Shown here piece by piece: positions 29,176-61,293 of a stretch of DNA of 64,000 nt (positions within the stretch are counted from its first letter, which is position 1; every line of letters begins with the position of its first letter). The translations under genes and the position numbers were made by a program. This DNA comes from Pseudomonadota bacterium (GTDB lineage: Bacteria > Pseudomonadota > Gammaproteobacteria > Burkholderiales > Thiobacillaceae): positions 4,707 through 68,706 of the forward strand of contig JBFLXA010000012.1 of assembly GCA_040757575.1 (NCBI GenBank), given 5' to 3'. Under the pieces are notes generated by a model. The model made no database searches and was not told the origin of the DNA. It saw only the letters and a program-made list of their open reading frames with translations.

Positions 29176-29183
29176 AGGAAGTT

Positions 29184-37866: not shown

Positions 37867-37883
37867 GTCTTTATATTCAATGA

Positions 37884-38873
<990 letters not shown>

Positions 38874-49073: not shown

Positions 49074-49081
49074 GATGGGGC

Positions 49082-49510
49082 TTACTTCACCAACGTGACG
49101 GGAATTTCAGAGAGATGCAGCACTTTCATTGCTACGGACCCCAGCAACAACCCCCCCAGGGCGGTGCGGCCGTGGCTGCCCATGATGATCTGGTCGCAGC
49201 CCAGGTCCTTGGCAAGGGCGGTGATACCGGGTGCCACCTCTCCCTGGATGATGTGTTCCGTGACGCATAAGCCGGCTTCATGAAGCACGGTGCGGGCTGG
49301 TGAGAGGGAGGCTTCCCCCCAGTCCCGTTCCAGGGTTGCCAGTTCCTCCGGCTTCAGCAGGCGGCGCACCATCCAGTCGTCCCCCGGGGCCTGGACGTTG
49401 ACCAGGTGGATATCCAGACCGGGCACCGAAGCGGCGATGCCGGCCACGTGGCGGGCAGCCCGCACGGACCCCTCTGAACCATCAACAGGTAGCAGGATTT
49501 TGCAGGGCAT
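49082..49510 (-). CDS. universal stress protein (UspA family)
   Basis: ILLPVDGS N-terminus and C-terminal GSHGRTALGGLLLGSVAMKV ATP-binding motif. Confidence 0.85.
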   Translation of the reverse strand: MPCKILLPVDGSEGSVRAARHVAGIAASVPGLDIHLVNVQAPGDDWMVRRLLKPEELATLERDWGEASLSPARTVLHEAGLCVTEHIIQGEVAPGITALAKDLGCDQIIMGSHGRTALGGLLLGSVAMKVLHLSEIPVTLVK

Positions 49511-49534
49511 GGTGAGGCCTCTTATGCGGATGGG

Positions 49535-50035
49535 CTAGACGCCGCCGCTATGGACGGTTTCGTAATATATCTTTTCCAGTTCCAGCTTGTGTTTGGTTTC
49601 CTCGCTGGCCAGGTACTGGAACAGTTCCTGGATGGGGCCGGCCGGGGTGGTCCGGGCGAGTTCGCCATAGTGGCTCATGGCCGCGTGCTCCCGCCCCATG
49701 GCATAGCGCAGCACCGTCTGGTCGTCCGGGTTGTCGCCCAGGTCCGGCAGGTGCAGGCAGTCGGAGAACTTGCTGTCGCTGGCCGGGCGCTGGATTTCCG
49801 CCTTCACCTGGTCGGCGATGTCCGTGCGTCGGGCCAGGGCGCCGAACAGGTCGTAGTGCCGCTGCTCCTCCTCGGCCAGCTCCTCCACCAGATAGCGGAT
49901 GCGCTTGCTGACCTTGGGAATCAGGGCCGTGTAGAAATCCCGGGCGGTTTCCTCGAAATGGGTGGCGACCTCGAGGATCTCCTTCAGGCTGGTCTTGCCG
50001 CGCAGGCGTTCGATGCCATGGCTACCTTCTGTCAT
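49535..50035 (-). CDS. rubrerythrin/ferritin-like di-iron protein
   Basis: Two ExxH motifs (EEEQRH, SEETKH) in a four-helix-type sequence. The start overlaps the upstream stop (ATGA). The ATG lies internal to track ORF 49535..50203. Confidence 0.75.
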   Translation of the reverse strand: MTEGSHGIERLRGKTSLKEILEVATHFEETARDFYTALIPKVSKRIRYLVEELAEEEQRHYDLFGALARRTDIADQVKAEIQRPASDSKFSDCLHLPDLGDNPDDQTVLRYAMGREHAAMSHYGELARTTPAGPIQELFQYLASEETKHKLELEKIYYETVHSGGV

Positions 50036-51831
50036 GCGTTTGCCTCCTGTGGAACCAATACCGCGTGGATGCTGGCAGCGATGCGATGGCCGTCCGCCAC
50101 CGCGTGCACCACATCCGGCCCGGCCACGCAGTCTCCGCCTGCCCAGAGCCAGGGCTCGGAGGTGCGGCCGTCGGCGTCGATCCGGATGCGGCCCCGGTTC
50201 CATTCCAGTCGTTCAGTCAGGGCGTCCCCCAGCAAGGACGTGTCGGCGAACTGGCCAATGGCCTCGATCACCGTGTCGCAGGCATGGATGGTTTCGTCGC
50301 CATCGTCATAGCGGGGGGCAAAGCGCCTGTTCTCGTCGAAGATGGACAACACCTTCCAGGTCTTCAGCCCCACCAGTTTTCCCTGGGGGTCGATTACGCA
50401 GCCCTGGGGGCCGCAACGGTCCCGGATGACCACGCCTTCCTCCAGGGCCTCCTTGATCTCGTCCGGGTCCGCCAGGAAGTGTTCCTGGTCTTCCAGGGCG
50501 GTCACCACCACGTCCACCTGGCCGTACTGCACCTTCTGCATGCGGGCCAGGGAGCGGGCGATGTCCATGGCCACGTTGCCACCGCCGATGACCACGGCGC
50601 AGTGGGGCAGCTCGAAGTCTTCGTTGGCGGTGATCCGGTGCAGCAGGTCCACGGCCCGGTAGACCTTCTCGTGCTCCGAGTTGGGGATGCGGGTCTGGCG
50701 GCCCTGTTGCAGGCCGATGGCCAGGACCACGGCGTCGTGGTCCTGGCGAAGCTGGTCCAGGGATACATCCACGCCGATGCGGCAGTTGTAGCGGATATCC
50801 ACCCCCATGGAAACGATGACCGCCACGTCCTGGTCCAGGGCGCTGTAGGGCAGGCGGTATTCCGGGATGCCGTAGCGGGTCATGCCGCCAGCGTGGGCGC
50901 TGGCCTCGAACACGGTGACGGCGTGGCCCAGGCGGGCCAGGTCGAAGGCGGCGGTGAGGCCCGCCGGGCCGGCGCCGATGATGGCCACCCGCTTGCCCGT
51001 GGCCGGGGCGGGGCCGCCGATGAGGTCCGGGATTCGGTCGAAGGGCACCTGGTCCACGATGTGCCGCTTCAGCCAGCGGATGGCGATGGGGTCCCCCTCG
51101 TGGCGGGCGGCACAGGCGTCCTCGCACTTGTGGGTGCAGACCCGGCCGCACACCTGGGAGAAGGGGTTGGTCTCGTAGAGCAGCTTCAGGCCCCGCTCAT
51201 AGTCGCCGTCGCGAATCGCGGCGATGTACTGGGGCACCGCCATGTGGGTGGGGCAGGTGGCCACGCACAGGCCACAGGCCACGCAACGGTCCGCCTCCAG
51301 GGCCGCCTGCTCCCGGGTGTAGCCGTGCACGATCTCCTTGAAGTTGTCGATGCGGTCCTGTGGATGCATCTCGCCCATGGGGATGCGGTACTGGCCCGTG
51401 AGGCGATGGTCTTCCGGGCGGCGGTAGCCCAGGGGCAGGGTGTTCCACTCCAGCTTGTCCACCCCGGGGGTGAAGCGGAAGGCGTCCGGGTCGCTTTCCA
51501 CCCACTGGTAGGCGTTGGACATGGTGAGGGACTGGGTCATGCACACGTCCACGCACAGGGCGCACCAGCAGCAACGGCCGTAGTCGATGCGGGGCCGCAG
51601 GCCCGAGTCGCCGGACTTGGTCTCGATGCCCGCCACCGGCAGCATGTCGATGGCCCCGTTCTGGCAGATGGTCTCGCAGGTGCCGCAGCCGATGCACTTG
51701 GCGATGTCGTTCTGGTGGAAGCCCCGGTAGCGGGGGGCCGCCTGGCGGTTCAGGGGGTCTTCAATGCTGACCGGGTCCCGGAACAGGTGCTTCCAGGCGG
51801 TGAAGGGGGAGAGGAGGTCCTTGACGCTCAT
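50032..51831 (-). CDS. fusion protein: NuoI/HycF/MbxN-like 2x[4Fe-4S] subunit + GltD-type NAD(P)H-dependent FAD oxidoreductase
   Basis: N-terminus has CIGCGTCETIC and CCWCALCVDVC (NuoI-like). Then the GltD N-domain (RCVACGLCVATCP, NPFSQVCGRVCTHKCEDAC), FAD fold RVAIIGAGPAGLTAA and a second Rossmann fold VVIGGGNVAMDIA. The true ATG at 51831 lies internal to the 912-aa track ORF. Confidence 0.85.
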   Translation of the reverse strand: MSVKDLLSPFTAWKHLFRDPVSIEDPLNRQAAPRYRGFHQNDIAKCIGCGTCETICQNGAIDMLPVAGIETKSGDSGLRPRIDYGRCCWCALCVDVCMTQSLTMSNAYQWVESDPDAFRFTPGVDKLEWNTLPLGYRRPEDHRLTGQYRIPMGEMHPQDRIDNFKEIVHGYTREQAALEADRCVACGLCVATCPTHMAVPQYIAAIRDGDYERGLKLLYETNPFSQVCGRVCTHKCEDACAARHEGDPIAIRWLKRHIVDQVPFDRIPDLIGGPAPATGKRVAIIGAGPAGLTAAFDLARLGHAVTVFEASAHAGGMTRYGIPEYRLPYSALDQDVAVIVSMGVDIRYNCRIGVDVSLDQLRQDHDAVVLAIGLQQGRQTRIPNSEHEKVYRAVDLLHRITANEDFELPHCAVVIGGGNVAMDIARSLARMQKVQYGQVDVVVTALEDQEHFLADPDEIKEALEEGVVIRDRCGPQGCVIDPQGKLVGLKTWKVLSIFDENRRFAPRYDDGDETIHACDTVIEAIGQFADTSLLGDALTERLEWNRGRIRIDADGRTSEPWLWAGGDCVAGPDVVHAVADGHRIAASIHAVLVPQEANA

Positions 51832-51833
51832 GG

Positions 51834-53009
51834 CTATCTCTCTATCTCCGGCGGATAGGTATGCAGGGACACCATCAGCGCAGCCACATCCGAGATGTTG
51901 AGCCCCACGATCATGCGTTCCAGCAGGGCCATGGCGTGGGTGTAGGAGGGCCCCCGCACGTTGACCCGTCTGGGGTAACCTGAGCCGTCCGTCACCAGGT
52001 AGTAGCCGTACTCCCCCCGGGAGCATTCGCCCCGCACGTAGGTCTCGCCCCGGGGGATCTTCCAGTGCAGCATGCTGGGCATGGGGGCCATGACCGGGCC
52101 GTCCTTGGGCATCCTGCTCAAAATCTGGCGGATCAGGTCCACGGACACCAGGATGTCCCGGCGGCGCACGTCGGCCCGGGTGTAGATGTCCGAGTCCTGG
52201 CCGATGACGGGTTCCCAGTCCAGTTGGTCGTAGACCAGGTAGGGGGCGTCCCGGCGCACGTCCTTCGCCACCCCTGCGGCCCGGGCGTTGGGGCCGGTGA
52301 TGCCGTACTGGTCCAGCCAGGCGGGGTCGATGACCCCCAGGCCCACGGTGCGCCGTTTGAACACGGCGTTGCAGAACATCACGTCCCACACGTCCTTGAG
52401 GGTGCGCTCCACCTCCAGCAGGGTTTCCTCCATGCGGCCGGCGAAGCCGTCGGGCAACTGGTCCCGCACGCCGCCGGGCATGATGAACATGTGGTAGATG
52501 CGGGCGCCGGTCATCTCCTCGAAGCGGTCCAGCATCAGGTCCCGGGCATAGGTGGTCCACTGGCCGATGACCCCCTGGCCGATGGCGCCGGCCTGGCCGC
52601 CCAGGTACATGAGATAGCTGTTGATGCGGCCCATCTCCAGGATCAGGGCGCGGATCCAGTTCGCCTTCTCGGGGACTTCCACCCCGGCCAGTTCCTCCAC
52701 GGCGGCGGCATAGCAGTATTCGTTGAAGTCCGGTTCCGGCACGCAGATGCGGCAGACGATGGGAAAGCACTGGATGAAGGTGCGCCGCTCCATGAGCTTT
52801 TCGAAGCCCCGGTGCAGGTAGCCCACATGGGTCTTGCCCTCCACCACCTCGTCGCCGCAGACGGTGAGTTCCACCGACATGTTGCCGGTGATGCCCGGGT
52901 GGTTGGGGCCCTGCCAGAGCTTCAGGTATTTGCCCGAGGTGAGGTCGATGTCCAGGCTGCCGTCAGGCTTCATCGCCGGGTACTGGGAGCGGTCGGGGGT
53001 GTAGGTCAT
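51834..53009 (-). CDS. NuoD/HycE/MbxL-like large subunit lacking most NiFe-ligand cysteines
   Basis: GPNHPGITG, GYLHRGFEKL and other NuoD/group-4 blocks. The N-terminal site reads CRICVPE instead of RxCGxC. The C-terminus reads YPPEIER instead of DPCxxC. Confidence 0.85.
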   Translation of the reverse strand: MTYTPDRSQYPAMKPDGSLDIDLTSGKYLKLWQGPNHPGITGNMSVELTVCGDEVVEGKTHVGYLHRGFEKLMERRTFIQCFPIVCRICVPEPDFNEYCYAAAVEELAGVEVPEKANWIRALILEMGRINSYLMYLGGQAGAIGQGVIGQWTTYARDLMLDRFEEMTGARIYHMFIMPGGVRDQLPDGFAGRMEETLLEVERTLKDVWDVMFCNAVFKRRTVGLGVIDPAWLDQYGITGPNARAAGVAKDVRRDAPYLVYDQLDWEPVIGQDSDIYTRADVRRRDILVSVDLIRQILSRMPKDGPVMAPMPSMLHWKIPRGETYVRGECSRGEYGYYLVTDGSGYPRRVNVRGPSYTHAMALLERMIVGLNISDVAALMVSLHTYPPEIER

Positions 53010-53030
53010 GGGCGGCGCTCCGCGCAACGC

Positions 53031-53150
53031 TTCCCCTCCCCCCCGGGGGGAGGGGCCAGGGGAGAGGGAGAGTCGGTGGCATGGTGTGAGGACTGTCGTG
53101 GCGCAACCGTCTTGCCCTCTCCCCAGCCCTCCCCCAGAGGGGGAGGGAGC
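53031..53150. repeat. REP-like element, family A (two units) inside the operon
   Basis: CCCCTCCCCCCCGGGGGGAGGGGCCAGGGGAGAGGG and CCCTCTCCCCAGCCCTCCCCCAGAGGGGGAGGGAG between the NuoC-like and NuoD-like genes. Confidence 0.8.
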
Positions 53151-53183
53151 GTGGTGCCGCGTCTGGTGATGGCTGGGTTCATG

Positions 53184-53726
53184 TCACGCTTTCCCGGGAT
53201 AGAGCTGCTGCTTCATGTAGGTCTCCGGGTCCCGGGTCTCCCGGCCGGGCCGCTGGGCGTAGCTTTCCCGGGCGTACTTCAGGGTGTCGAAGTCGCGGCG
53301 GTAGGGGGGAATGTCGTTCCAGCCCTCCAGGATGAATTCCTCCTCCACCCGGGGGCTGCCTGGGAAGGCGATGCCGAACATCTCCCGCAGTTCCCGCTGG
53401 TAGGTGGCGGCCGTGGGCCACAGGTCGTGGATGCTCTCCATGGTGGTGTCGACCCGGGGCAGCAGCACCCGCAGGCCGATGTCCTGGTTCGCCGTGCGAT
53501 TGTTCAGCAGGTAGGTCAACTGGAACTGGCCGTCTTCAAGCCAGTCCACCGCCGTCAGCAGCACCAGATGTGTAAACCCCTCCAGGTCCCGCAGGTGCAG
53601 CAAGGCCTGGCGCAGGTATTCCGCCGGCAGGGTGACGAAGACCAGATTGGCGCGCTTCTCGGTCATCTCGCCGAGCGGGAAAAGAGCCTTCAGGCGGTCG
53701 TGGAGGTCATGCATGCCGTTATTCAC
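53184..53726 (-). CDS. NuoC/MbxK-like subunit
   Basis: NuoC 30-kDa-type blocks (LLTAVDW, WPTAATYQRELREMFGIAF). Confidence 0.85.
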   Translation of the reverse strand: MNNGMHDLHDRLKALFPLGEMTEKRANLVFVTLPAEYLRQALLHLRDLEGFTHLVLLTAVDWLEDGQFQLTYLLNNRTANQDIGLRVLLPRVDTTMESIHDLWPTAATYQRELREMFGIAFPGSPRVEEEFILEGWNDIPPYRRDFDTLKYARESYAQRPGRETRDPETYMKQQLYPGKA

Positions 53727-53736
53727 GTCGTCCTCG

Positions 53737-54402
53737 TCACCAGTTGTAATCCGGCATGTCCCAGTCGTGGATCACCTGCTTCTGGTTGGCCTTGTACCAG
53801 GCGAACTTCTCCGCGTACTGGTTGGCGCCTTCCGCCTTGCCGGCCCGGATCAGCTTCTTCAGGTCTTCGAAGCCCAGCAGCAGGGCCTCGGGGCGGGGCA
53901 TGCAGCCGGTGATGTAGAGGTCCACGGGCATGTACTGGTCCAGGCACTTGATGGTGTTGTAGGAATCCCAGTACATGCCGCCGTTGATGGTGCAGGAGCC
54001 CAGGCCCACCACGTACTTGGGGTTCTGCATCTGCTCGTAGGCGCGGATGGCCCGCTTCAGGGTCTTGGTGGACAGGTAGCCGGAGATGACCAATAAATTT
54101 GCCTGGCGGGCCGTGGGCCGCCACTGGATGCCGTAGCGGTAGGCGTCGAAGCGGGGGGTCATGAGGGGGCGCATCTCGATGGCGCCGCAGCCTGTACCGA
54201 AGCCCAATATCCACAGGGAATTGGCCCGGGCCCAGTTGAAGAAGTCCTCGACGATCTTCAGGTAGGCGCCGTGCTGCACCGTGGGGGGCGCGTCGCAGAA
54301 GTAGTCCTTGAGGGGCTCCACTTCGAATTCCACCCCGTCCGGCCCCTTCACCTTGCGGGGCATCAGCTCGGGTTTGATGAAATGCATCGGGTCGCGCTTC
54401 AT
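53737..54402 (-). CDS. NuoB/MbxJ-like small subunit with ~55-aa N-terminal extension
   Basis: GFGTGCGAIEM, GLGSCTINGG and ITGCMPRPE correspond to NuoB cluster-N2 motifs. Only one Cys is present where NuoB has CC. Confidence 0.85.
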   Translation of the reverse strand: MKRDPMHFIKPELMPRKVKGPDGVEFEVEPLKDYFCDAPPTVQHGAYLKIVEDFFNWARANSLWILGFGTGCGAIEMRPLMTPRFDAYRYGIQWRPTARQANLLVISGYLSTKTLKRAIRAYEQMQNPKYVVGLGSCTINGGMYWDSYNTIKCLDQYMPVDLYITGCMPRPEALLLGFEDLKKLIRAGKAEGANQYAEKFAWYKANQKQVIHDWDMPDYNW

Positions 54403-54412
54403 TTTCTCGTCC

Positions 54413-55318
54413 TCACACCAAGACTATGGCCAATACGCCCAGGGGCAGGCCCCAGATCATGAACCAGCGGATGGACTGCTCCACCCGGAAGCGGGGAAAC
54501 ACCACACCCACGAACACCGACACCATGTAGATGCAGAACACCTTCAGGAAGAACACCGGCCAGCTGGCCGCGCCGCCGAAGAACAGGTTCATGTAGATGA
54601 CGATCTTGGCAATCGGGAAGATGGCCCGGTTGGTCTGCATCAGGGCCAGGTAGGAGGAGTGGTACTCCGTGGGGGGGCCGATGGGGATTTCCTGGGGGGC
54701 GAGCACCACGTCGAAGGGGGGACGCATCATGGACCCCAGGAAGCCGATCATGGCCGCCGCCACTGCCACCGGGTTGGTGAACAGGGTCCAGTTTTCCACG
54801 CCTCCCTGCTGGGCGGCGACGATGTCCGTCACCGACAGGGTCTGGTATTGCAGGGCCACGGCGAACACTGCCAGGGCGAAGGGCAGTTCCGCCATGCTTA
54901 CTTGCGACAGGCCCCGGGTGATGCCGATGGCAGAATGGGGATGGCCGGATTCCGCCGCCCCCAGGGCCATGCCCAGGGTGCCGAAGAAGACGAAGTACAG
55001 GGCCAGGATCAGGTCGCCGGCAAAGGACAGGTTGGAGAACATTTCCGAGCCGTAGATCGTCGGCACGAACAGCAGCAGCCCCACGCCGCCGGTAAGGCGG
55101 AACACCGGTCCCAGGTAGAACATGGCGCCGTGGGTGATGGAGGTGCGCAGGCCGTAGTTCTTGATCAGGTCCGCGTAGTTCTGCCAGATGGGAATGCCGT
55201 GGCGCCGCCCCACCCGGGCGCCGATCTTCTGGATGAAGGCCCCCAGCAGCATGCCGTAGTTCACCACGATGAACAGGGTCAGCAGGGCGTAGGGAATCTG
55301 GATCCACTGGAATTCCAT
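54413..55318 (-). CDS. NuoH/HycD/MbxM-like membrane subunit
   Basis: About 8 TM helices and the conserved loop RPPFDVVLAPQEIPIGPPTEY. Confidence 0.8.
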   Translation of the reverse strand: MEFQWIQIPYALLTLFIVVNYGMLLGAFIQKIGARVGRRHGIPIWQNYADLIKNYGLRTSITHGAMFYLGPVFRLTGGVGLLLFVPTIYGSEMFSNLSFAGDLILALYFVFFGTLGMALGAAESGHPHSAIGITRGLSQVSMAELPFALAVFAVALQYQTLSVTDIVAAQQGGVENWTLFTNPVAVAAAMIGFLGSMMRPPFDVVLAPQEIPIGPPTEYHSSYLALMQTNRAIFPIAKIVIYMNLFFGGAASWPVFFLKVFCIYMVSVFVGVVFPRFRVEQSIRWFMIWGLPLGVLAIVLV

Positions 55319-55321
55319 GGT

Positions 55322-58300
55322 TTAGAACCCCACGAAGAAAACGATGACCACGAAGGCCAGGAAATGGAAGGCGTAGTGCTGGCCGTTGCCGTCGTAAAGA
55401 CGCCGGCCCAGGTCGCCGGCGGTGTGCAGCAGGTCGGTGACGGTGCCCCAGAAGCGGGTGACGAAGGGCTGGGTGAGAAAGCCCATGGCCTTGCGGTAAG
55501 GGGCGTAGAAGTTCCAGGCGAAGTGGGTGGTCTCGGGCCGGTAGGGACGCTCGGCGGAGAAGACGATGTTGAACTGCTTCACCATCTGGGCGCGGCGGTT
55601 CACGAACAGCAGCCAGGCGAACAGGGTGGCGAAGATGACGCCGACGATGATCATGATGGCTACCGGGTTCCAGTAGCCATACTGGCTGGTGATGAGCCCG
55701 CCCTCCCATTGCAGGGCGCCGGTGGGGAAGAAGGTGCTGATGTAGGCGTCCACCTGGCGCAGGGCCAGGCCGGGCACCACGGCGAACACCAGCAGCATCA
55801 CCACGAACAGCATTTGCGGCACCACGATCCAGAAGGGGGCTTCCTTCACCCGGCGAAGTTCGTCCTTCAACTGGCCCAGAAAGATGGTGTGGATGAGGCG
55901 GAACAGGTACAGGAAGGCGATGGGCCCGGCCATGAACAGGATCACCATGGGCAGGCGGCTGTCGTGGTCCATGATGGCGTTGTAGAAGATCCAGCGGCCG
56001 CCAAAGCCGGACAGGGGCGGCACCCCGGACATGGCGATGATGCCGATCAATACGGCGATGAAGGACAGGGGCATGAGCTTGATGAGGCCCCCCATGCGGT
56101 ACATCTCCCGGGTGCCGGTACGCTTGGCCACGCCGCCCACCGCCAGGAAGAGCATGGACTTGTAGATGAAATGGTTGATGACGAACAGCAGGGCCATGAG
56201 CCAGCCCAGGTGGTTCATCAACGCCAGACCGAACAGGGCATAGCCCATCTGGCCGATGGAGGAATAGGCCAGGAGGCGTTTCGCGTCCTCCTGGAAGATG
56301 GCGAGCAGGTTGCCCAGGAGGGCGGTCAAGGCCCCCACCCAGAGCAGGGCATGGGTCAGGTCCACGCCATACAGGGTCTGGGGGCCCAGGGTCATGAGCA
56401 GCACGAACAGGCCGAACAGCCCGGCCTTCAGCAGGATGCCGGACACCAGGGGCGATACGTCGGTCTCCGCCTCGGCGTGGGCGCCGGGCAGCCAGATGTG
56501 CAGGCCGATGGCGGCGGTCTTGGTCATGAATCCCAGGGCGAGGAGCAGGAACACCCAGGGGGCGATGGGCTCCACCAGGTCCACCAGGTCCACCAGATAC
56601 AGGTTGGGCACCCCGGCACCGGCCGCCGCCAGGGCAAACCCCGCCAGGATGAGGAAGGCCCCGCCCAGGGAGAACACCATGTAGGACAGGGCGTGGGGTT
56701 CGGATTCCTTGCCCCGCAGGATGAGGAAGTAGGACCCCAGGGTGAGCAGTTCCCAGGCGGCGAAGAAATGGAAGGCGTCCTGGGCCTGCACCAGCATCAC
56801 CAGGCCGGCGAACATGAGCAGGGTGGCGGGGTAGAAGCCGATGCGCCGGCCGTGGGCGTGGTAGCTGGCCAGCAGGGTGATGGCCCCGCCCAGGGTGAAG
56901 ATCAGGGCGAAGATCAGCCGCAGGGGGTCGTAGTCGTCCCAGGTCAGCAAGAAGAAGCCCACCAGGCCGCCAATGGCCAGGGTGTTCTTCACCCAGGCGG
57001 GCAGCCAGTCCAGCAGCAGGAAACCCAGGGCAAAGAGCAGGGGCAGGGCCAGCAGCAGGTTGCTCCGGCCGAACAGGCCGGCCGACAGGTCGCCCCACAG
57101 CCAGGCCAGGGCCCAGGCCGCGGCCAGGGCAGCGAGGACGGGGAGGGCCTTGTGGGCCGGGCAGGTCGGCGATGTTGCCGGGGCCTCCCGCTTCAGGGCA
57201 TAGCCGAACCAGCGGAACAGGTAGCCCGCCTCGATGAGGGCCCCCAGCAGCACCAGGGCCAGGAGGGCCAGGCGGCCTTCCCGGGCCAGCACCTGGGCCA
57301 GTTCCCACTTGGCGTAGAAGCCGGGGAAGGGGGGCAGGCCGGCCAGCAGGGCAATGAAACAGGCGAAGGCGAACAGGAGCAGGGGACGCTTGGCCAGGGC
57401 GGCCCAGTCCGTGAGCTGCCGGCCCGCCACCAGGCCGGATAGCCAGAACAGGCCGGCCTTGGCCACGGCGTGGGAGACCAGGATGCCGAAGGCGATGAAG
57501 GGGGTGGCTTCCCCCAGGATGTCCCGCTGGCCCAGCACCGCCAGCACCAGGCCGGTCTGGGCGATGGAGGAATAACCCAGCAGGCGCCGGTCATTCTTCT
57601 GGGGCAGGGCCAGGATGTTGGCCGCCACGAAGGTGGTGATGCCGATGCCCGTGGCCAGGGGCAGCCAGGCGCTGCCGCCCACCAGCAGCAGCTTGTCCAC
57701 GGCGTACAGGGCGGCGGCACCGGTGGCGGCAGAGAACAGGGCCGAGAAGCCGGGATGGGCGGATTCGTAGATATCCAGGGCCCAGCCGTTGGCGGGGAAG
57801 GGCTTCAACTCCGCCACCAGGGCCAGGAAGATGAAGAAGAAGGCCAGGCTGCCCCCCTGGGTCAGGCCCAGGTTGGCCGCGGCCATGCCGTCGATGTTGA
57901 GGGTGCCGGTGGCGTGGTAGGCGAAGATGATGCCCACCAGCAGCAGCACGGAAATGAACTGGGACACCAGCAGATACTTGAAGCCGGCCCCCAGGGCCCG
58001 CTCGTCCCGGGACAACAGCACCAGGCCGGCGGTGGAGATGACCGCCAGCTCGAAGAACACGAACAGGTTGAACAGGTCCCGGGTGAGGAGGATGCCGCCC
58101 AGGGCCATGACCGCCACCAGCAGCACCGCCATGGCCCGGCGACCCTGGCCCAGAAGGGCGTCCTTCAGGTGCAGGGCGGTGAACAGGCCGGTCAGGTTCA
58201 CCAGCAGGGCCAGGGCGGCTTCCTCCAGGCCGAACCGCAGGTTGATGGCGAAGGGGGGCGGCGTGCCGGCGGTGAAGATCTCCTGGGGCGGGGCGCCTTC

Positions 58301-58477
58301 CTGGACGAAGGCCCACAGCCAGCGGGCGGGAATCCAGACCATCCAGGCCAGGACCCCCAGGGTCAGGCCGTAGGCCGTGCGGGCACGGTCTCCCAGCAGC
58401 CCCAGCAGGAAAGCCCCGCCCAGTCCCAGGGCCAGGAGGAGGATGGGATGCAGGAACAGGCTGTCCACGGCCGTCAT
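55322..58477 (-). CDS. fused double antiporter-like subunit (two MrpD/NuoM/N-type modules, MbxH-MbxH' equivalent)
   Basis: 1051 aa, about 28 TM helices, with two successive proton-conducting-transporter cores. The start overlaps the MrpC-like stop (ATGA). Confidence 0.85.
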   Translation of the reverse strand: MTAVDSLFLHPILLLALGLGGAFLLGLLGDRARTAYGLTLGVLAWMVWIPARWLWAFVQEGAPPQEIFTAGTPPPFAINLRFGLEEAALALLVNLTGLFTALHLKDALLGQGRRAMAVLLVAVMALGGILLTRDLFNLFVFFELAVISTAGLVLLSRDERALGAGFKYLLVSQFISVLLLVGIIFAYHATGTLNIDGMAAANLGLTQGGSLAFFFIFLALVAELKPFPANGWALDIYESAHPGFSALFSAATGAAALYAVDKLLLVGGSAWLPLATGIGITTFVAANILALPQKNDRRLLGYSSIAQTGLVLAVLGQRDILGEATPFIAFGILVSHAVAKAGLFWLSGLVAGRQLTDWAALAKRPLLLFAFACFIALLAGLPPFPGFYAKWELAQVLAREGRLALLALVLLGALIEAGYLFRWFGYALKREAPATSPTCPAHKALPVLAALAAAWALAWLWGDLSAGLFGRSNLLLALPLLFALGFLLLDWLPAWVKNTLAIGGLVGFFLLTWDDYDPLRLIFALIFTLGGAITLLASYHAHGRRIGFYPATLLMFAGLVMLVQAQDAFHFFAAWELLTLGSYFLILRGKESEPHALSYMVFSLGGAFLILAGFALAAAGAGVPNLYLVDLVDLVEPIAPWVFLLLALGFMTKTAAIGLHIWLPGAHAEAETDVSPLVSGILLKAGLFGLFVLLMTLGPQTLYGVDLTHALLWVGALTALLGNLLAIFQEDAKRLLAYSSIGQMGYALFGLALMNHLGWLMALLFVINHFIYKSMLFLAVGGVAKRTGTREMYRMGGLIKLMPLSFIAVLIGIIAMSGVPPLSGFGGRWIFYNAIMDHDSRLPMVILFMAGPIAFLYLFRLIHTIFLGQLKDELRRVKEAPFWIVVPQMLFVVMLLVFAVVPGLALRQVDAYISTFFPTGALQWEGGLITSQYGYWNPVAIMIIVGVIFATLFAWLLFVNRRAQMVKQFNIVFSAERPYRPETTHFAWNFYAPYRKAMGFLTQPFVTRFWGTVTDLLHTAGDLGRRLYDGNGQHYAFHFLAFVVIVFFVGF

Positions 58478-58839
58478 CCCTTCAGCTCCGTGAACTGGCG
58501 GATGTCCAGGCTGCGTTTCCGGTCATGGAGCCGCAGGGCGTAGGCCAGCATGAGGGCCGTCACCCCCACGCCGATGACGATGGCGGTGAGCACCAGGGCC
58601 TGGGGCAGGGGGTCGATGATGCGGGCCACGGCCTGGGCGGCCGGCACCGTGGCATCCAGGATGGGGGCGGTGCGTCCGCCCATGTAGCCGATGGCGACGA
58701 TGACGGTGTTCACCCCCGTGCCCGCCAGGGTGAAGGCCACGATCATGCGCAGCAGGTTACGGTGGGTGAGGGCGCCGTAGAAGCCGATGAGGATCAGCAG
58801 GAAGCCGGTGGCCAGGGCCATCTGGGCGATGTCGGGCAT
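58474..58839 (-). CDS. MrpC/MnhC/NuoK-like subunit
   Basis: Three TM helices, LTHRNLLRMIVAF and ALVLTAIVIG blocks. Confidence 0.85.
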   Translation of the reverse strand: MPDIAQMALATGFLLILIGFYGALTHRNLLRMIVAFTLAGTGVNTVIVAIGYMGGRTAPILDATVPAAQAVARIIDPLPQALVLTAIVIGVGVTALMLAYALRLHDRKRSLDIRQFTELKG

Positions 58840-59558
58840 CAGGGCGCCTCCCCGTCATGGGCTCGGGACTTCTCCTCCGCCAGACCCGCCAGCAGGGAAG
58901 ACAGTTCCGCCCCCACCTTCAGGCCGATGAGGGAATAGATGAGGGGGATGGCCCCGGCGGAGAACAGGGCCCCCAAGGTGCCGGTGGGCAGGATGCGGTT
59001 GTCCAGGAAGCCCCCGGCCAGCACCAGGCCCAGCAGGCCGATGAGCACGTAGAACGTGCCGGACAGGGCTTCGATGGCGCCGATGAGCCGATGGCTGAAG
59101 GTCTTGAAGGGATCGGCCAGCAGCATCAGCAAGGCCCCGGAAGCGATGATGGCGCCGCCCTGGAAGCCGCCGCCCGGTGTCAGGTGGCCGTTGACGAAGA
59201 CATAGACCCCCAACAGCAGGATCAGGGGGGCCAGGTAGCGGCTGCCGGTGGCCAGCAGTTCCCCCACGGGGGGCCGGGGGGCGCCGGATTTCTCCGCCTG
59301 CCCCCCCAGGGCCAGCACCAGGCCCACCACGGCGGCGGCCAGGAACAGCACCGTCACTTCCCCCAGGGTATCCAGGCCCCGGTAGGTGACGATGATGGCG
59401 GTGACGATGTTGGCGGCCCCCAGGTCCGGGGCGGTGCGCTCGGCGTAGTAGCGGGCGGTCTGGTTCAGCTCCGGGTCCGGGCTGTAGCCCGCCAGCAGGG
59501 CAGAGAACAGGCCTCCCAGGGCGAGCACCAGGGCCAGGGCGATGAAGCGCTTAACCAT
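58839..59558 (-). CDS. MrpB/MnhB-domain subunit (MbhE/F-like)
   Basis: NIVTAIIVTYRGLDTLGEVTVL and GGFQGG blocks typical of the MnhB domain. Confidence 0.8.
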   Translation of the reverse strand: MVKRFIALALVLALGGLFSALLAGYSPDPELNQTARYYAERTAPDLGAANIVTAIIVTYRGLDTLGEVTVLFLAAAVVGLVLALGGQAEKSGAPRPPVGELLATGSRYLAPLILLLGVYVFVNGHLTPGGGFQGGAIIASGALLMLLADPFKTFSHRLIGAIEALSGTFYVLIGLLGLVLAGGFLDNRILPTGTLGALFSAGAIPLIYSLIGLKVGAELSSLLAGLAEEKSRAHDGEAP

Positions 59559-59874
59559 GTTCCGTCTCCCGCTCGCGCCGGCTGCGGATGCGGGCCAGCA
59601 CGAAGAAGAACAGGAAGGTGGTGAGGCCGCTGCCGATGGCCGCCTCGGTCATGGCCACGTCCGGCGCCGCCAGGATGAGATACAGGATGGACGCCATCAG
59701 GCCCACCAGGCCGGCGGCCAGGATGGCGCCGGGCAGGGCCCGGATTTCCGCCGCCTCGTCGTCATCGCTTGCCTTGCCCGGCGTCCGGGCCACGGCCAGC
59801 AGGGCGGCGCCGAGCATGGCCAGGCAGAGCAGGGCGGCCAGGGCGGTGGTCAGGATATCCATGGAGGCGTCCAT
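59551..59874 (-). CDS. small membrane subunit, DUF4040/MrpA C-terminal-like (MbhD-like)
   Basis: Three TM helices, APDVAMTEAAIG block, and position between MrpG and MrpB homologues. Confidence 0.65.
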   Translation of the reverse strand: MDASMDILTTALAALLCLAMLGAALLAVARTPGKASDDDEAAEIRALPGAILAAGLVGLMASILYLILAAPDVAMTEAAIGSGLTTFLFFFVLARIRSRRERETEHG

Positions 59875-60221
59875 CAGACTTCTCCCCGGTCTTCCGACAA
59901 CCGGTCCACCCGGGTCAGGGCGGTCTTGTGGCTGCCCGCCCGGTGGGCTGCCCGGGCCAGCACCTGGGAGGAGATGGGGTTGGTGAACAGGATGAACAGG
60001 CCGATGAGCAGGAGTTTCAGGGCCCAGTCCGGATGCAGGCAGGCCACCCCGGCCAGGCTCAGCAGGGTGCCCAGGGTGGTGGCCTTGGTGCCCGCCTGGA
60101 TGCGGGTGAACAGGTCCGGCATGCGCACCAGGCCCAGGCCCCCCAGCAGCAGGAAGGCCGCCCCGCCCACCAGCAGCAGGCCGCCCAGCAGGTTCAGGGG
60201 GGTGTCCGCCAGGGGTATCAC
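59874..60221 (-). CDS. MrpG/MnhG subunit
   Basis: GLVRMPDLFTRIQAGTKATTLG hallmark. Confidence 0.85.
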   Translation of the reverse strand: MIPLADTPLNLLGGLLLVGGAAFLLLGGLGLVRMPDLFTRIQAGTKATTLGTLLSLAGVACLHPDWALKLLLIGLFILFTNPISSQVLARAAHRAGSHKTALTRVDRLSEDRGEV

Positions 60222-60478
60222 AGGCCCCGCTCCAGGTAACGGGCGACGACGATTACCCCCAGGAAGGACAGCAGGGCGTACACCAGGGCCACGTCCAGGT
60301 AGATGCCCCGGCCGGCCGCCAGGGCCACCAGCACGATGGCCGTGATGCCGACGATGGTGAGCACGTCGAAGGCCACCACCCGGTCGGCGGTGTCCGGGCC
60401 CCGCAGGAAGCGGACCAGGGCCAGCACCAGGGCCAGGCCGGTGAGCAGGGCGGCCAGCAGCACCAGGGTTTCAGCCAT
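60218..60478 (-). CDS. MrpF/MnhF subunit
   Basis: RFLRGPDTADRVVAFDVL hallmark. Confidence 0.85.
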   Translation of the reverse strand: MAETLVLLAALLTGLALVLALVRFLRGPDTADRVVAFDVLTIVGITAIVLVALAAGRGIYLDVALVYALLSFLGVIVVARYLERGL

Positions 60479-60971
60479 ACATCACCTCCAGATAGCGCTC
60501 GAAACCGGCGACGATTTCGGCGGTGGCGGCTTCGATATCCTCGGCTTCCACCGTCACCCAGTGGACGTAGAGCCACTCCCCGTCCAGTTCCACGCTGAGG
60601 GTGCCGGGGGTGAGGGTGATGGAATTGGCCAGCAGCAAGCGGCCCATGGGACTCTTCAGCCGGGTGCGTACCTTGACGATGCCCGGGTTGATGGGCAGGG
60701 CGGGGGACAGGACGATGCGGGCCAGGCGCAGGTTGGACTGCACCAGGGCCTTGAGAAAGTAGAGCCCATAGGCCGGTGCCGTCAACAGGGCGGGGACGTT
60801 GAAGCGGAACTGGGCCGCCACCGACAGGCCCTGGCGGAACAGCAGGGTGATGACCCCGGCCGCCACGCCGCCCACCAGCCACACATCGGCGGCCAGGGAG
60901 CCGTTCAGCAGCAGCCAGAAACCCAGCAGGGTGGCGAACATCAGGGTCATGGATCTGGCCTGGGCAATCAT
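60471..60971 (-). CDS. MrpE/MnhE subunit (first gene of the operon)
   Basis: LLANSITLTPGTLSV hallmark. An alternative start is at 60950. Confidence 0.8.
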   Translation of the reverse strand: MIAQARSMTLMFATLLGFWLLLNGSLAADVWLVGGVAAGVITLLFRQGLSVAAQFRFNVPALLTAPAYGLYFLKALVQSNLRLARIVLSPALPINPGIVKVRTRLKSPMGRLLLANSITLTPGTLSVELDGEWLYVHWVTVEAEDIEAATAEIVAGFERYLEVMYG

Positions 60972-61293
60972 GGACGTGCCTTCGGGCTGGCGCAGGGAGC
61001 CGAATTCGGGAACGAGGCCGGCAGGGTTTTCACAGGGGACTCTCTTCGTACATGGGCATCTTTTAGCACGAACCGCACCAGCTCGTGCTGGCAGGGGTTA
61101 CATCCTCCTGATACAAGAAAATTTACCTAGACCCGGGGGATTCTCGGGCGATACACGGGGGGACGCGCCACTGCTTGGCAACGTCCGAGGATGGCGGACA
61201 AGCATGACGACATGATGACCCGGGTTCCGCTGCACCAGTCTGGACCGGCATGCCCCGAAATCATACGTCACGGCCGGGGCATGGGGGCAGGGC

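What the first reader, a model, noticed from the sequence alone, without database searches (positions are those of the whole stretch)
49082..60971. Bacterial Mbx/Mbs-like Mrp-respiratory complex next to the nif genes
**Seen in the sequence.**
- Fourteen co-oriented, mostly overlapping genes occur in this order: MrpE, MrpF, MrpG, DUF4040, MrpB, MrpC, a fused double MrpD-like subunit, NuoH-like, NuoB-like, NuoC-like, NuoD-like, a NuoI-like/GltD fusion, then a rubrerythrin-like protein and a Usp.

**Established knowledge (from memory).**
- The first twelve follow the gene order of the archaeal mbx/mbs operon (ABCDFGHH'MJKLN).
- That is the Mrp-antiporter plus group-4-hydrogenase-like architecture of ion-pumping Mbh/Mbs.
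- Complexes that lack the NiFe ligands have been grouped as hydrogenase-related (Ehr/Mbx-type). Their substrates are mostly unknown.

**Inference.**
- This is an ion-translocating oxidoreductase that is neither complex I (no NuoEFG, no NuoA/J/L set) nor a hydrogenase.
- It is plugged into NAD(P)H through a GltD module.
- Because it borders mod/nif genes, one testable idea is that it links NAD(P)H and the ion gradient to a low-potential carrier for nitrogenase.
- A sulfur or polysulfide role like Mbs is an equally open alternative. Sulfide-oxidation genes lie at the left edge of the window.
Basis: partly seen in the sequence, partly recalled or inferred. Interest (0 to 1): 0.85.

Follow-up and report, generated by a model that had tools for sequence, protein, structure and literature searches.

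The report
Bacterial MBS/Mbx-type NADH-linked ion pump
This operon encodes an uncharacterised, complex-I-related membrane ion pump of a type already described in the literature, found in at least 577 bacterial species genomes, and its position beside the nitrogen-fixation genes here appears incidental.

Summary
**Observation:** confirmed. Fourteen intact co-oriented genes lie on the minus strand, 60971 to 49082. A 15th co-oriented gene follows 8 nt later.

**What it is:** the first 12 genes are collinear with Pyrococcus mbs/mbx.
- Every subunit tested has its best solved-structure match in MBS (PDB 6U8Y).
- The NuoD-like subunit groups with MbsL (41% identity, 79% NJ bootstrap).
- It lacks the hydrogenase NiFe cysteine set and the complex-I quinone His/Tyr.
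- The NuoB-like subunit keeps the three-cysteine proximal [4Fe-4S] cluster that is the proposed catalytic site of MBS.

**Electron module:** the last core subunit is MbsN fused to an NfnB/GltD-type flavoprotein. Its NADPH-binding Arg pair (YRR) reads ALE, which predicts NADH.

**Distribution:** the 13-gene module, ending in a ferritin-like protein, occurs in at least 577 species genomes. [quoted passage not shown]

**Link to nif:** not supported.
- No nif or mod neighbours in 79 of 80 related loci, nor in the closest relatives. One locus has weak nifDK-like matches.
- The operon converges on modC.
- It has no NifA/sigma-54 promoter, whereas four such promoters sit elsewhere in the window.

**Still open:** the substrate. 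A sulfane-sulfur role like MBS is the best lead.

**Verdict:** a new member of a known kind, of moderate interest.

The parts
60471..60971 (-). MbsA/MnhE-like membrane subunit (166 aa)
   Evidence: Pfam MNHE 131 bits. Best PDB match is MBS chain 6u8y_A, 103 bits.
60218..60478 (-). MbsB/MrpF-like subunit (86 aa)
   Evidence: Pfam MrpF_PhaF 64 bits. NCBIfam antiporter subunit F.
59874..60221 (-). MbsC/MnhG-like subunit (115 aa)
   Evidence: Pfam PhaG_MnhG_YufB 87 bits. NCBIfam NF009314 115 bits, above its cutoff.
59551..59874 (-). MbsD/MbhD (DUF4040) subunit (107 aa)
   Evidence: Pfam MbhD 56 bits.
58839..59558 (-). MbsE-like subunit (MbhE + MnhB domains, 239 aa)
   Evidence: Pfam MnhB and MbhE. 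Best PDB match is 6u8y_E, 170 bits over the full length.
58474..58839 (-). MbsG/MrpC/NuoK-like subunit (121 aa)
   Evidence: Pfam Oxidored_q2 78 bits. NCBIfam antiporter subunit C.
55322..58477 (-). Fused MbsH-MbsH' antiporter-like subunit (1051 aa), carrying two predicted proton-pump units
   Evidence: Residues 13-266 match 6u8y_H (146 bits) and residues 476-1046 match 6u8y_X, MbsH' (193 bits). NCBIfam PRK08377 matches the N half and PRK08668 the C half. The fusion is kept in relatives (1040-1060 aa).
54413..55318 (-). MbsM/NuoH-like membrane anchor of the peripheral arm (301 aa)
   Evidence: Pfam NADHdh 152 bits. Best PDB match is 6u8y_M at 131 bits; the next is NdhA at 50 bits.
53737..54402 (-). 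MbsJ/NuoB-like subunit (221 aa) carrying the proximal [4Fe-4S] cluster on three cysteines (C72, C137, C167)
   Evidence: Best PDB match is 6u8y_J at 208 bits, against about 130 for complex I/NDH-1 NuoB-type subunits and 89 for MbhJ. 'FGTGCGAIEM' aligns without gaps to MbsJ 'FCTGCGGIEM'. The pattern is invariant in 73 relatives.
53184..53714 (-). MbsK/NuoC-like subunit (176 aa from Met5 of the ORF, which begins at 53726)
   Evidence: Pfam Complex1_30kDa 89 bits. Relatives are 176 aa.
53010..53183 (-). Intercistronic REP-like hairpin insertion between the K and L genes
   Evidence: Folds at -97.9 kcal/mol, z -4.1. The GGGAGAGGG motif is enriched in the window. It is absent from relatives, whose K/L junction is 1 nt.
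51834..53009 (-). MbsL/NuoD-like subunit forming the substrate pocket (391 aa from Met7 of the ORF, which begins at 53027)
   Evidence: Best PDB match is MbsL 6u8y_L at 306 bits, against Nqo4 219 and MbhL 133. In the NJ tree it groups with MbsL at 79% bootstrap. Motifs are 'VCRICVPEPD' and 'HTYPPEIER', with the quinone His/Tyr replaced by Thr/Val; all are invariant in 77 relatives.
50032..51831 (-). MbsN/NuoI-like 2x[4Fe-4S] domain fused to an NfnB/GltD-type 2x[4Fe-4S] + FAD + NAD(H) flavoprotein (599 aa)
   Evidence: Pfam Fer4_7, Fer4_20 and Pyr_redox_2. NCBIfam NF010590 850 bits. PDB: residues 6-109 match 6u8y_N, and residues about 150-593 match NfnB-type proteins at 219-271 bits against GltD at about 150. 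'YRR' of the homologues reads 'ALE' here.
49535..50035 (-). Ferritin-like diiron protein of the rubrerythrin family (166 aa); the conserved 13th gene of the module
   Evidence: Pfam Rubrerythrin 48 bits. Weak PDB matches to uncharacterised ferritin-like proteins 2fzf and TM1526. Detected in 73 of the 80 genome loci (L003-L082); some of the other seven contigs end before it.
49082..49510 (-). Universal stress protein (142 aa); an accessory gene of this genome, not part of the conserved module
   Evidence: Pfam Usp 102 bits. Absent downstream in 78 of 80 genome loci and in the closest relatives.
47856..49073 (-). NhaD-like/CitMHS-family transporter (405 aa); probably co-transcribed, specific to this genome
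   Evidence: Starts 8 nt after the Usp stop. Pfam CitMHS 40 bits. NCBIfam NhaD 67 and 46 bits, both below cutoff. Not found in related loci.

Best explanation
**What it is.** The operon encodes a bacterial member of the MBS/MBX branch of the complex-I superfamily.
- The membrane arm is Mrp-type and ion-translocating: MbsA-G, a fused MbsH-H' and MbsM.
- The peripheral arm is MbsJ, K and L.
- The tip subunit, MbsN, is fused to an NfnB/GltD-type flavoprotein.

**How it most likely works.**
- *Inferred from the domain order:* electrons pass between NAD(H) and FAD, then along four [4Fe-4S] clusters in the fusion protein, to the proximal [4Fe-4S] cluster of the J subunit at the membrane interface.
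- *Shown:* that cluster has only three cysteine ligands, exactly as in Pyrococcus MBS. There the free iron is the proposed site of polysulfide reduction.
- *Inferred:* the most likely chemistry is reduction of a sulfane-sulfur compound (polysulfide or persulfide), or another non-quinone, non-proton substrate, in the J/L/M pocket, coupled to H+/Na+ translocation. Because NADH and the sulfur couple lie close in potential, the reaction may also run in reverse, driven by the ion gradient.

**Relation to nif.** The 13 genes from MnhE to the ferritin-like protein form a self-contained, widely distributed module. Its position next to nif/mod here is incidental.
For: **Family membership (shown).**
- Pfam and NCBIfam identities and gene order match mbs.
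- Every subunit tested has MBS 6U8Y as its best solved relative: L 306, J 208, E 170, H' 193, H 146, M 131, A 103 and N 79 bits.
- The L subunit groups with MbsL in an NJ tree of 131 sequences (window clade 99%, plus the Bacteroidota sister 100%, plus the MbsL group 79% bootstrap in a 67-sequence subset).

**Catalytic site (shown).**
- The J subunit keeps the equivalents of MbsJ C28, C93 and C123. It lacks C25, with no insertion or deletion, and this is invariant in 73 relatives.
- The MBS paper assigns catalysis to that three-Cys cluster, and not to C25 or to L-subunit C85/C385 (PMC7684303).

**Exclusions (shown).** There is no full NiFe cysteine set, no quinone His38/Tyr87, and no tandem Cys in NuoB.

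**Nucleotide module (shown and inferred).** It has Fer4_20, FAD and NAD-binding domains. NfnB-type proteins are its best relatives. The 2'-phosphate 'YRR' is replaced by the invariant 'ALE'.

**Modularity (shown).** At least 577 species genomes encode a relative of the fusion protein. The 13-gene core is conserved in all 80 loci wherever the contig allows, and no flanking family recurs in more than 6 loci.

**Hints on physiology.**
- T. maritima mbxA rises 4.4-fold with elemental sulfur (PMC9431562).
- Endoriftia's 'Mrp-Mbx' shares co-expression neighbours with the rTCA cycle, hydrogenases and V-type ATPases rather than with the CBB cycle (PMC11636981).
- A V/A-type ATPase operon directly follows the module in six Chromatiaceae/Thiosymbion loci.
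Against: - No member of the flavoprotein-fused bacterial subfamily has been purified, so the substrate is inferred from 41% identity to MbsL and from a conserved cluster ligation.
- The L subunit here lacks MbsL C385 (Tyr instead) and has an extra invariant Cys that forms C-R-[IV]-C. The pocket is therefore not identical to MBS.
- NADH (about -320 mV) to polysulfide (about -260 mV) yields little energy for a pump with three proton-translocating units. This argues for a different, higher-potential acceptor or for reverse operation.
- Some hosts (Celeribacter, Tropicimonas and other Rhodobacterales) are, as far as I know, not sulfur-storing or sulfur-respiring organisms.
- The NADH-versus-NADPH call rests on a general Rossmann-fold rule, not on an assay.
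- Upstream context in the related loci was barely sampled (less than 1 kb).
Confidence: 0.6

Rival explanations
1. The complex uses NAD(P)H plus the ion gradient to reduce a low-potential carrier (ferredoxin or flavodoxin) for nitrogenase, acting like Rnf or FixABCX. That would explain why it sits next to nif/mod.
For: - It lies physically close to modEABC and nifHDKY.
- Several genera in the locus list are, from my own knowledge, diazotrophs: Thiodiazotropha, Sedimenticola, Gallionellaceae, Magnetospirillum, Chromatiaceae. Endothiovibrio diazotrophicus appears among the protein hits.
- NfnB-type modules can handle low-potential electrons.
Against: - 79 of 80 related loci have no nif or mod neighbours; one has only weak nifDK-like matches. 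Relatives 88-91% identical are flanked by PALP, NUDIX and PPDK genes.
- The operon is convergent with modC-GNAT, so it is a separate transcription unit.
- No NifA UAS lies upstream, and there is only a chance-level sigma-54-like match. Four UAS plus sigma-54 pairs precede nifU, nifV, nifH and another gene in the same window.
- Hosts include Rhodobacterales that are, to my knowledge, mostly non-diazotrophic.
- In this enzyme family energy coupling occurs at the buried proximal-cluster pocket, which a soluble ferredoxin cannot reach.
Confidence: 0.06
2. The 2015 literature proposal. It is a reversible, ion-coupled ferredoxin:NAD(P)+ oxidoreductase of general use (for example for the rTCA cycle or other ferredoxin-dependent enzymes). 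Ferredoxin docks on the MbsN-like domain and NAD(P)+ on the flavoprotein.
For: - Proposed for 'mbx-like operons of Thermotoga and proteobacteria' (PMC4758237).
- The MbsN-like domain that binds ferredoxin in MBS is retained.
- Endoriftia's Mrp-Mbx shares co-expression neighbours with the ferredoxin-dependent rTCA cycle.
Against: - The proposal predates the reassignment of Pyrococcus MBX as the sulfane reductase MBS.
- If both substrates bind at the tip of the peripheral arm, electrons bypass the proximal cluster and its pocket. Yet that pocket is under strict conservation (three-Cys cluster, CxxC, His/Tyr/Glu invariant) and is where coupling occurs in MBS and complex I.
Confidence: 0.15
3. It is an alternative NADH:quinone oxidoreductase: a complex-I analogue in which an NfnB-type flavoprotein replaces NuoEFG and the Mrp arm pumps ions.
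For: - The hosts are proteobacteria, which as a group respire with quinones (my own knowledge).
- The MBS chamber is hydrophobic and as wide as the complex-I quinone cavity (PMC7684303).
- NADH to quinone would supply ample energy for three pump units, unlike NADH to polysulfide.
Against: - The quinone-headgroup ligands His38 and Tyr87 of Nqo4 are Thr and Val, invariant in 77 relatives.
- The J subunit lacks the tandem Cys-Cys of complex I.
- The L subunit clusters with MbsL, not with NuoD, FpoD or NdhH.
Confidence: 0.15
4. It is mainly an oxidative-stress device. NADH-derived electrons are passed to the ferritin-like diiron protein to reduce peroxide or oxygen, and the Usp marks a stress regulon.
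For: - The ferritin-like gene is the conserved 13th gene, detected in 73 of 80 loci.
- GltD-ferritin domain fusions exist as an NCBIfam family, NF009413.
- Usp genes lie nearby here and in a Bacteroidota relative.
Against: - A membrane ion-pumping machine of about 12 subunits is not needed for peroxide reduction.
- The Bacteroidota sister operon lacks the ferritin-like gene.
- Usp is not conserved next to the module.
Confidence: 0.04

Closest known systems
Pyrococcus furiosus MBS (membrane-bound sulfane reductase, formerly MBX; PDB 6U8Y)
   Same: - The subunit set and gene order are the same: A B C D E G H H' M J K L N.
- Every subunit tested is closest to its MBS counterpart.
- The three-Cys proximal [4Fe-4S] cluster sits on a loop of the same length.
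- NiFe ligand C1 (MbsL C85) is retained, and the quinone His/Tyr are absent.
   Different: - L-subunit identity is only 41%.
- MbsL C385 is Tyr here, and an extra invariant Cys creates C-R-[IV]-C.
- H and H' are fused into one 1051-aa protein.
- MbsN carries an about 480-residue NfnB/GltD-type flavoprotein. NAD(H) is therefore a built-in redox partner, in place of or in addition to ferredoxin.
- A ferritin-like 13th gene is present.
- The hosts named in the loci are proteobacterial genera that, to my knowledge, are mostly not hyperthermophiles.
[quoted passage not shown] Endoriftia (PMC11636981); T. maritima MBX (PMC9431562)
   Same: As described in the 2015 paper, it has the same architecture: Mrp genes plus NuoH/B/C/D-like genes, the NuoI-like subunit replaced by a gltD-related flavoprotein, and an operon that often ends in rubrerythrin. 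The window operon is a member of this described but uncharacterised group.
   Different: - No biochemical data exist for any member.
- Published function proposals conflict: Fd:NAD(P)+ oxidoreductase versus sulfur reductase.
- I could not retrieve the Thermotoga sequences to measure their distance from the window proteins.
Respiratory complex I (NuoA-N) and photosynthetic NDH-1
   Same: The Q-module subunits (NuoB, C, D, I, H) and antiporter-like subunits are homologous, and the L-shaped design and coupling principle are shared.
   Different: - The operon has no NuoE/F/G.
- The Mrp-type distal arm (MnhE, F, G, B) is present.
- The quinone ligands are absent.
- The J subunit has a single Cys where complex I has Cys-Cys.
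NfnB, the large subunit of NADH-dependent ferredoxin:NADP+ oxidoreductase, and Stn-type homologues
   Same: They are the best solved relatives of residues about 150-593 (219-271 bits). They share two [4Fe-4S] clusters, FAD and a nucleotide-binding Rossmann domain.
   Different: - No NfnA partner is encoded in the operon.
- It is fused to a NuoI-like domain.
- The NADPH-binding 'YRR' is 'ALE'.
- There is a 5-6 residue insertion before that strand.

Membership tests
MBS/MBX (Mrp-Mbx) complexes | Thirteen subunits encoded in the order A B C D E G H H' M J K L N, combining an Mrp antiporter arm with NuoH/B/C/D/I-like subunits | tested here: met
   Pfam and NCBIfam identities and gene order. H and H' are fused, so there are 12 genes.
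MBS/MBX (Mrp-Mbx) complexes | Subunits closer to MBS than to MBH, Mrp or complex I | tested here: met
   6U8Y chains are the top PDB match for the A, E, H, H', M, J, L and N-like proteins. The L subunit groups with MbsL in the NJ tree at 79% bootstrap.
MBS/MBX (Mrp-Mbx) complexes | Proximal [4Fe-4S] cluster of the J subunit held by three cysteines on a shortened loop (the proposed catalytic iron) | tested here: met
   The equivalents of C28, C93 and C123 are present and C25 is Gly. The alignment to MbsJ has no gaps. Invariant in 73 relatives.
MBS/MBX (Mrp-Mbx) complexes | L subunit retains two vestigial NiFe cysteines (MbsL C85 and C385) | tested here: not met
   The C85 equivalent is kept (C95 of the ORF), but C385 is Tyr391. 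The MBS paper shows that both are dispensable for catalysis.
MBS/MBX (Mrp-Mbx) complexes | Stand-alone ferredoxin-docking MbsN as the electron entry point | tested here: not met
   The MbsN-like domain (residues 6-109) is fused to an NfnB/GltD-type flavoprotein.
MBS/MBX (Mrp-Mbx) complexes | Ferredoxin-dependent polysulfide/sulfane reduction coupled to Na+/H+ translocation | not testable with these tools
   This needs enzyme assays. The only indirect data are the S0 induction of T. maritima mbxA and the Endoriftia co-expression pattern.
Group 4 [NiFe] hydrogenases (Mbh, Ech, Hyc, Coo) | Four cysteine NiFe ligands in the large subunit (RxCGxC ... DPCxxC) | tested here: not met
   The pattern here is C1 = Cys, C2 = Glu, C3 = Tyr, C4 = Glu. 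True hydrogenases in the same search show C-G-C and C-x-x-C.
Respiratory complex I (Nuo) | NuoEFG NADH-dehydrogenase module; quinone-binding His38/Tyr87 in NuoD; tandem Cys-Cys ligands of cluster N2 in NuoB | tested here: not met
   The operon has no NuoE/F/G. The residues are Thr47 and Val96 in place of His and Tyr. The J subunit has the single Cys72.
NfnB/GltD-type iron-sulfur flavoproteins | N-terminal 2x[4Fe-4S] domain (Fer4_20) plus FAD and NAD(P)H Rossmann domains | tested here: met
   Pfam Fer4_20 101 bits, Pyr_redox_2 100 bits and NAD_binding_8. PDB NfnB-type matches at 219-271 bits.
NfnB/GltD-type iron-sulfur flavoproteins | NADPH specificity through the Arg-Arg pair after the second strand of the nucleotide-binding domain (YRR) | tested here: not met
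   It aligns as 'TALE' against 'YRR' in the five homologues whose alignments were printed. T444, A445 and E447 are invariant in 11 family members. This predicts NADH.
nif regulon or nitrogenase-support genes | NifA upstream activator site (TGT-N10-ACA) plus a -24/-12 sigma-54 promoter; conserved linkage to nif genes | tested here: not met
   There is no UAS in 60972-61300, only a 3-mismatch sigma-54-like match at chance frequency. Positive controls occur at 9205/9315, 16280/16390, 22139/22326 and 37792/37904. Nif linkage is absent in 79 of 80 loci and weak in one.

The most novel reading that the evidence does not exclude
The flavoprotein-fused bacterial MBS-type complex is a reversible, ion-gradient-coupled NADH:sulfane-sulfur (polysulfide/persulfide) oxidoreductase.
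- In sulfur- and iron-oxidising lithoautotrophs it would make NADH from reduced sulfur at a small cost in ion-motive force, instead of by full reverse electron flow through complex I.
- Under anoxia it would respire stored sulfur.
- The chemistry would occur at a three-Cys [4Fe-4S] cluster assisted by the clade-specific C-x-x-C of the L subunit, resembling a ferredoxin:thioredoxin-reductase or Hdr-type iron-sulfur/disulfide site.
- In some Chromatiaceae it would be paired with a dedicated V/A-type ATPase.
Probability: 0.22. Interest if true: 0.7.

Novelty: new member of a known kind. Interest (0 to 1): 0.35.

Why it matters
- **Breadth.** The module occurs in at least 577 species-representative genomes of Alpha-, Beta- and Gammaproteobacteria, and has a sister clade in Bacteroidota/Chlorobi. 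Hosts include iron oxidisers, purple sulfur bacteria, magnetotactic bacteria and chemosynthetic animal symbionts.
- **Gap.** No bacterial member has been characterised biochemically, and the published guesses about its function conflict.
- **If it links NADH to sulfur chemistry with ion coupling,** it would change energy budgets for sulfur lithotrophy and for anaerobic survival on stored sulfur. It would also add a structurally distinct branch (flavoprotein input, fused pumps) to the evolution of complex I.
- **For this window specifically,** the useful result is negative. The operon should not be annotated as nitrogenase-associated, as NADH-quinone oxidoreductase, or as glutamate synthase.

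Tried and rejected
- **Conserved neighbours.** I clustered all flanking ORFs of 80 loci. No family occurred in more than 6 loci. The only recurrent set is a V/A-type ATPase operon in six Chromatiaceae/Thiosymbion loci.
- **ATPase ion specificity.** The ATPase c subunit has 'LAEG' at the ion-binding Glu. I could not call Na+ versus H+ from this.
- **Sigma-70 promoters and terminators, 47-62.5 kb.** No promoter-like sites were found, and terminator-like sites were at the chance level. This was uninformative in 65-70% GC DNA.
- **Sigma-54 site upstream of MnhE.** The one candidate (61065-61080) has 3 mismatches, and such matches are no more frequent than chance (95 observed, 120 expected). I rejected it as evidence.
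- **Literature.** Searches for biochemical work on the proteobacterial complex found only PMC4758237, PMC11636981 and PMC9431562. The 2018 JBC paper on MBS (PMC6204914) is not held.
- **Host organism.** It could not be identified. The best matches are 92% (an unnamed metagenome protein) and 86% (a Pseudomonadota MAG).
- **Extra cysteine.** I first read the L-subunit 'C-R-I-C' as retention of both N-terminal NiFe cysteines. Alignment to Nqo4 and to the RxCGxC register shows that only the second Cys is a ligand equivalent; the first is an extra residue at -3.
- **Structure prediction.** Not run. The tools return no coordinates, so distances in the pocket could not be measured.

Full report
**1.

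The interval 49082-60971 carries 14 intact, co-oriented ORFs on the minus strand. Pfam and NCBIfam assign them as follows:
- MnhE, MrpF, MnhG and MbhD (DUF4040)
- a protein with MbhE and MnhB domains
- a NuoK/MrpC-like protein
- a 1051-aa protein with two antiporter-like halves
- NuoH-, NuoB-, NuoC- and NuoD-like proteins
- a 599-aa protein with a NuoI-like 2x[4Fe-4S] domain, then Fer4_20, FAD and NAD-binding domains
- a rubrerythrin-family protein
- a Usp

Most junctions overlap or are a few bases apart.

I would add four details:
- Relatives of 176 and 391 aa suggest that the NuoC- and NuoD-like genes start at 53714 and 53009.
- A 174-nt spacer between those two genes folds into a very stable hairpin.
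- The 'rubrerythrin' matched only the ferritin-like Rubrerythrin family in Pfam. Its best solved-structure matches are uncharacterised ferritin-like proteins.
- A weakly NhaD-like transporter gene (47856-49073) follows Usp after 8 nt on the same strand.

**2. Family placement**

Every subunit I compared with solved structures has the matching chain of Pyrococcus furiosus MBS (6U8Y) as its best hit.

| Window protein | Best match (bits) | Next best (bits) |
|---|---|---|
| NuoD-like | MbsL 306 | Nqo4 219; MbhL 133 |
| NuoB-like | MbsJ 208 | complex I/NDH-1 about 130; MbhJ 89 |
| NuoH-like | MbsM 131 | NdhA 50 |
| MbhE+MnhB | MbsE 170 | |
| MnhE | MbsA 103 | |
| Fused antiporter, C half | MbsH' 193 | |
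| Fused antiporter, N half | MbsH 146 | |
| Fusion protein, residues 6-109 | MbsN 79 | |

The gene order is therefore exactly A B C D E G H H' M J K L N, with H and H' fused.

I searched the L subunit against 1.84 billion cluster representatives. Its own cluster representative is 63% identical. The next full-length relatives drop to 41% and then to about 35%.

A neighbour-joining tree of 131 sequences, with bootstraps run on a 67-sequence subset, gave this support:
- the window clade: 99%
- the window clade plus its 63% sister: 100%
- both together with MbsL and two MbsL-like representatives: 79%

Ordinary NuoD sequences and true group-4 hydrogenases fall outside.

**3. Active-site anatomy**

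*L subunit*:
- Of the four NiFe-ligand positions, only the first is Cys (C95 in ORF numbering, equivalent to MbsL C85). The others are Glu, Tyr and Glu.
- MbsL's second vestigial cysteine (C385) is Tyr here.
- An extra cysteine three residues upstream creates C-R-[IV]-C.
- The complex-I quinone ligands His38 and Tyr87 are Thr and Val.
- All of these residues are invariant in 77 relatives.

*J subunit*:
- 'FGTGCGAIEM' aligns without gaps to MbsJ 'FCTGCGGIEM'.
- The three cysteines that hold the proximal cluster in MBS are kept.
- The fourth, non-ligating cysteine (C25) is Gly.

The MBS structure paper assigns polysulfide reduction to the free iron of exactly this three-Cys cluster. It also shows that C25, C85 and C385 are dispensable (PMC7684303).

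So the complex is neither a hydrogenase nor a canonical quinone reductase, and it keeps the defining catalytic feature of MBS.

**4. The nucleotide module**
- Residues about 150-593 of the fusion protein match NfnB-type proteins better (219-271 bits) than true glutamate synthase small subunits (about 150 bits).
- In the five homologues whose alignments were printed, the strand after the second GGGN-AMD motif ends in 'YRR'. By the usual Rossmann-fold rule this is the 2'-phosphate-binding pair. The window protein has 'ALE' there, and T444, A445 and E447 are invariant across the family alignment.
- By the same rule, this predicts NADH rather than NADPH. That is an inference, not an assay.

**5. 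Distribution and prior description**
- More than 7,900 database proteins match the fusion protein at E <= 1e-20.
- The best 80 loci span Gallionellaceae, Thiothrix, Chromatiaceae, Sedimenticola, Ca. Thiodiazotropha, Ca. Thiosymbion, Magnetospirillum, Magnetovibrio, Magnetococcales and several Rhodobacterales.
- tblastn with the window proteins shows the 13-gene core, through the ferritin-like gene, wherever the contig is long enough. Magnetovirga frankeli has it too.
- The sister clade of the L subunit lies in Bacteroidota/Chlorobi MAGs. It has the same architecture, including both fusions. It lacks the ferritin-like gene and has a Crp/Fnr regulator and a Usp upstream.

This operon type is already in the literature:
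- A 'putative Mrp-Mbx complex' is reported in Ca. Endoriftia. It shares co-expression neighbours with the rTCA cycle, hydrogenases and V-type ATPases, and its direction of operation is listed as unknown (PMC11636981).
- T. maritima mbxA rises 4.4-fold with elemental sulfur (PMC9431562).

**6. The nif hypothesis**

Three independent tests go against it.
- *Synteny.* No nif or mod homologue lies within the fetched flanks in 79 of 80 loci. One Magnetospirillum locus has weak nifDK-like matches (28-32% identity). Relatives 88-91% identical are flanked by OmpA, PALP, NUDIX and PPDK genes. No flanking family recurs in more than 6 loci.
- *Transcription units.* nifHDK, nifY, modEABC and a GNAT gene run on the plus strand and converge on the transporter-Usp end of the operon.
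- *Promoters.* TGT-N10-ACA sites paired with sigma-54 matches of 2 or fewer mismatches occur before nifU (9205/9275 and 9315), nifV (16280 and 16390), a gene near 22.3 kb, and nifH (37792 and 37904). The 320 nt upstream of MnhE have no UAS and only a 3-mismatch sigma-54-like match. Such matches are no more frequent in the window than in shuffled sequence.

**7. How it probably works**

*Inferred from domain order and from the MBS structure:* NAD(H) exchanges electrons with FAD. Two clusters of the NfnB-like part and two of the MbsN-like part relay them to the three-Cys cluster of the J subunit. That cluster lies at the pocket formed by the J, L and M subunits. Redox chemistry there drives, or is driven by, the two fused pump units and the Mrp-type distal module.

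*The substrate is unknown.* A sulfane-sulfur compound is the best lead, for three reasons:
- the conserved cluster ligation;
- the sulfur-induced Thermotoga operon;
- the lifestyle of many hosts.

*The thermodynamic difficulty.* NADH to polysulfide yields only about 10 kJ per electron pair. That fits poorly with three pump units. It suggests either reverse operation (ion-gradient-driven NAD+ reduction by reduced sulfur) or a higher-potential acceptor.

Six Chromatiaceae/Thiosymbion loci have a V/A-type ATPase operon immediately downstream on the same strand. This fits a dedicated ion circuit. I could not determine the coupling ion.

**8. Verdict**

The link to nitrogenase is not supported. The novelty is limited, because this architecture has been described, although never characterised.

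What I add:
- the strictly conserved MBS-type three-Cys cluster;
- a clade-specific CxxC with loss of the C385 equivalent;
- an NADH-type nucleotide signature;
- the H-H' fusion;
- the breadth of distribution;
- the ATPase linkage in one lineage.

Noticed in passing
window 53010-53183 (minus strand): A 174-nt spacer between the NuoC-like and NuoD-like genes folds into a long GC-rich hairpin (-97.9 kcal/mol, z -4.1). It is built from GGGAGAGGG/CCCTCTCCC motifs that also occur in other intergenic spots (9721-9744, 10687-10749, 38907-38972). Close relatives have a 1-nt junction here, so this looks like a REP/MITE-like insertion inside the operon.
   Followed up: partly
L043, L045, L050, L052, L056, L064 (about 200 nt to 9 kb downstream of the ferritin-like gene): In six Chromatiaceae/Ca. 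Thiosymbion genomes a complete V/A-type ATPase operon (d/AC39, a/I, c, E, A, B and more) follows the mbx-like module on the same strand. This echoes the reported sharing of rTCA co-expression neighbours by Mrp-Mbx and V-type ATPases in Endoriftia.
   Followed up: partly
window 51834-53009 (L subunit; Cys92 and Cys95 of the 397-aa ORF): An extra cysteine three residues before the retained NiFe-ligand position creates an invariant C-R-[IV]-C motif in all 77 proteobacterial relatives. The Bacteroidota sister has C-V-R-M-C, and MbsL has only the second Cys. It could be a redox-active dithiol next to the three-Cys cluster.
   Followed up: partly
window 23389-35903: A lower-GC block (52-58%, against about 65% elsewhere) splits the nif region. 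It encodes an SNF2 helicase, an AIPR abortive-infection protein, DUF5131, a GMT-wHTH protein, an N6/N4 DNA methylase, RhuM and a ResIII helicase. It looks like an inserted defence or mobile island.
   Followed up: no
window 9205-9330, 16280-16405, 22139-22341, 37792-37919: There are four NifA-type promoters (TGT-N10-ACA about 35-190 bp upstream of a sigma-54 -24/-12 match with 2 or fewer mismatches). They lie before nifU, nifV, an unassigned gene near 22.3 kb, and nifH.
   Followed up: partly
L087 (Bacteroidota-type genome, 6.7-Mb contig): The sister-clade operon has the same fused H-H' and NuoI-flavoprotein genes. A small 23S_rRNA_IVP/bAvd-like gene is inserted between the L gene and the fusion gene. 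A Crp/Fnr-family regulator and a Usp lie upstream, and there is no ferritin-like gene.
   Followed up: no
window 47856-49510 and 61294-61791: The genes around the module are specific to this genome. Usp and a weakly NhaD-like transporter lie downstream and are probably co-transcribed. A C_GCAxxG_C_C putative redox protein lies 322 nt upstream on the same strand. None of them was found next to the module in related loci, although upstream flanks there were short.
   Followed up: partly
window 484-4565: The left edge carries the flavoprotein of flavocytochrome c sulfide dehydrogenase (FccB), a multihaem cytochrome (c554-like domain) and a MauG/di-haem peroxidase.
   Followed up: no
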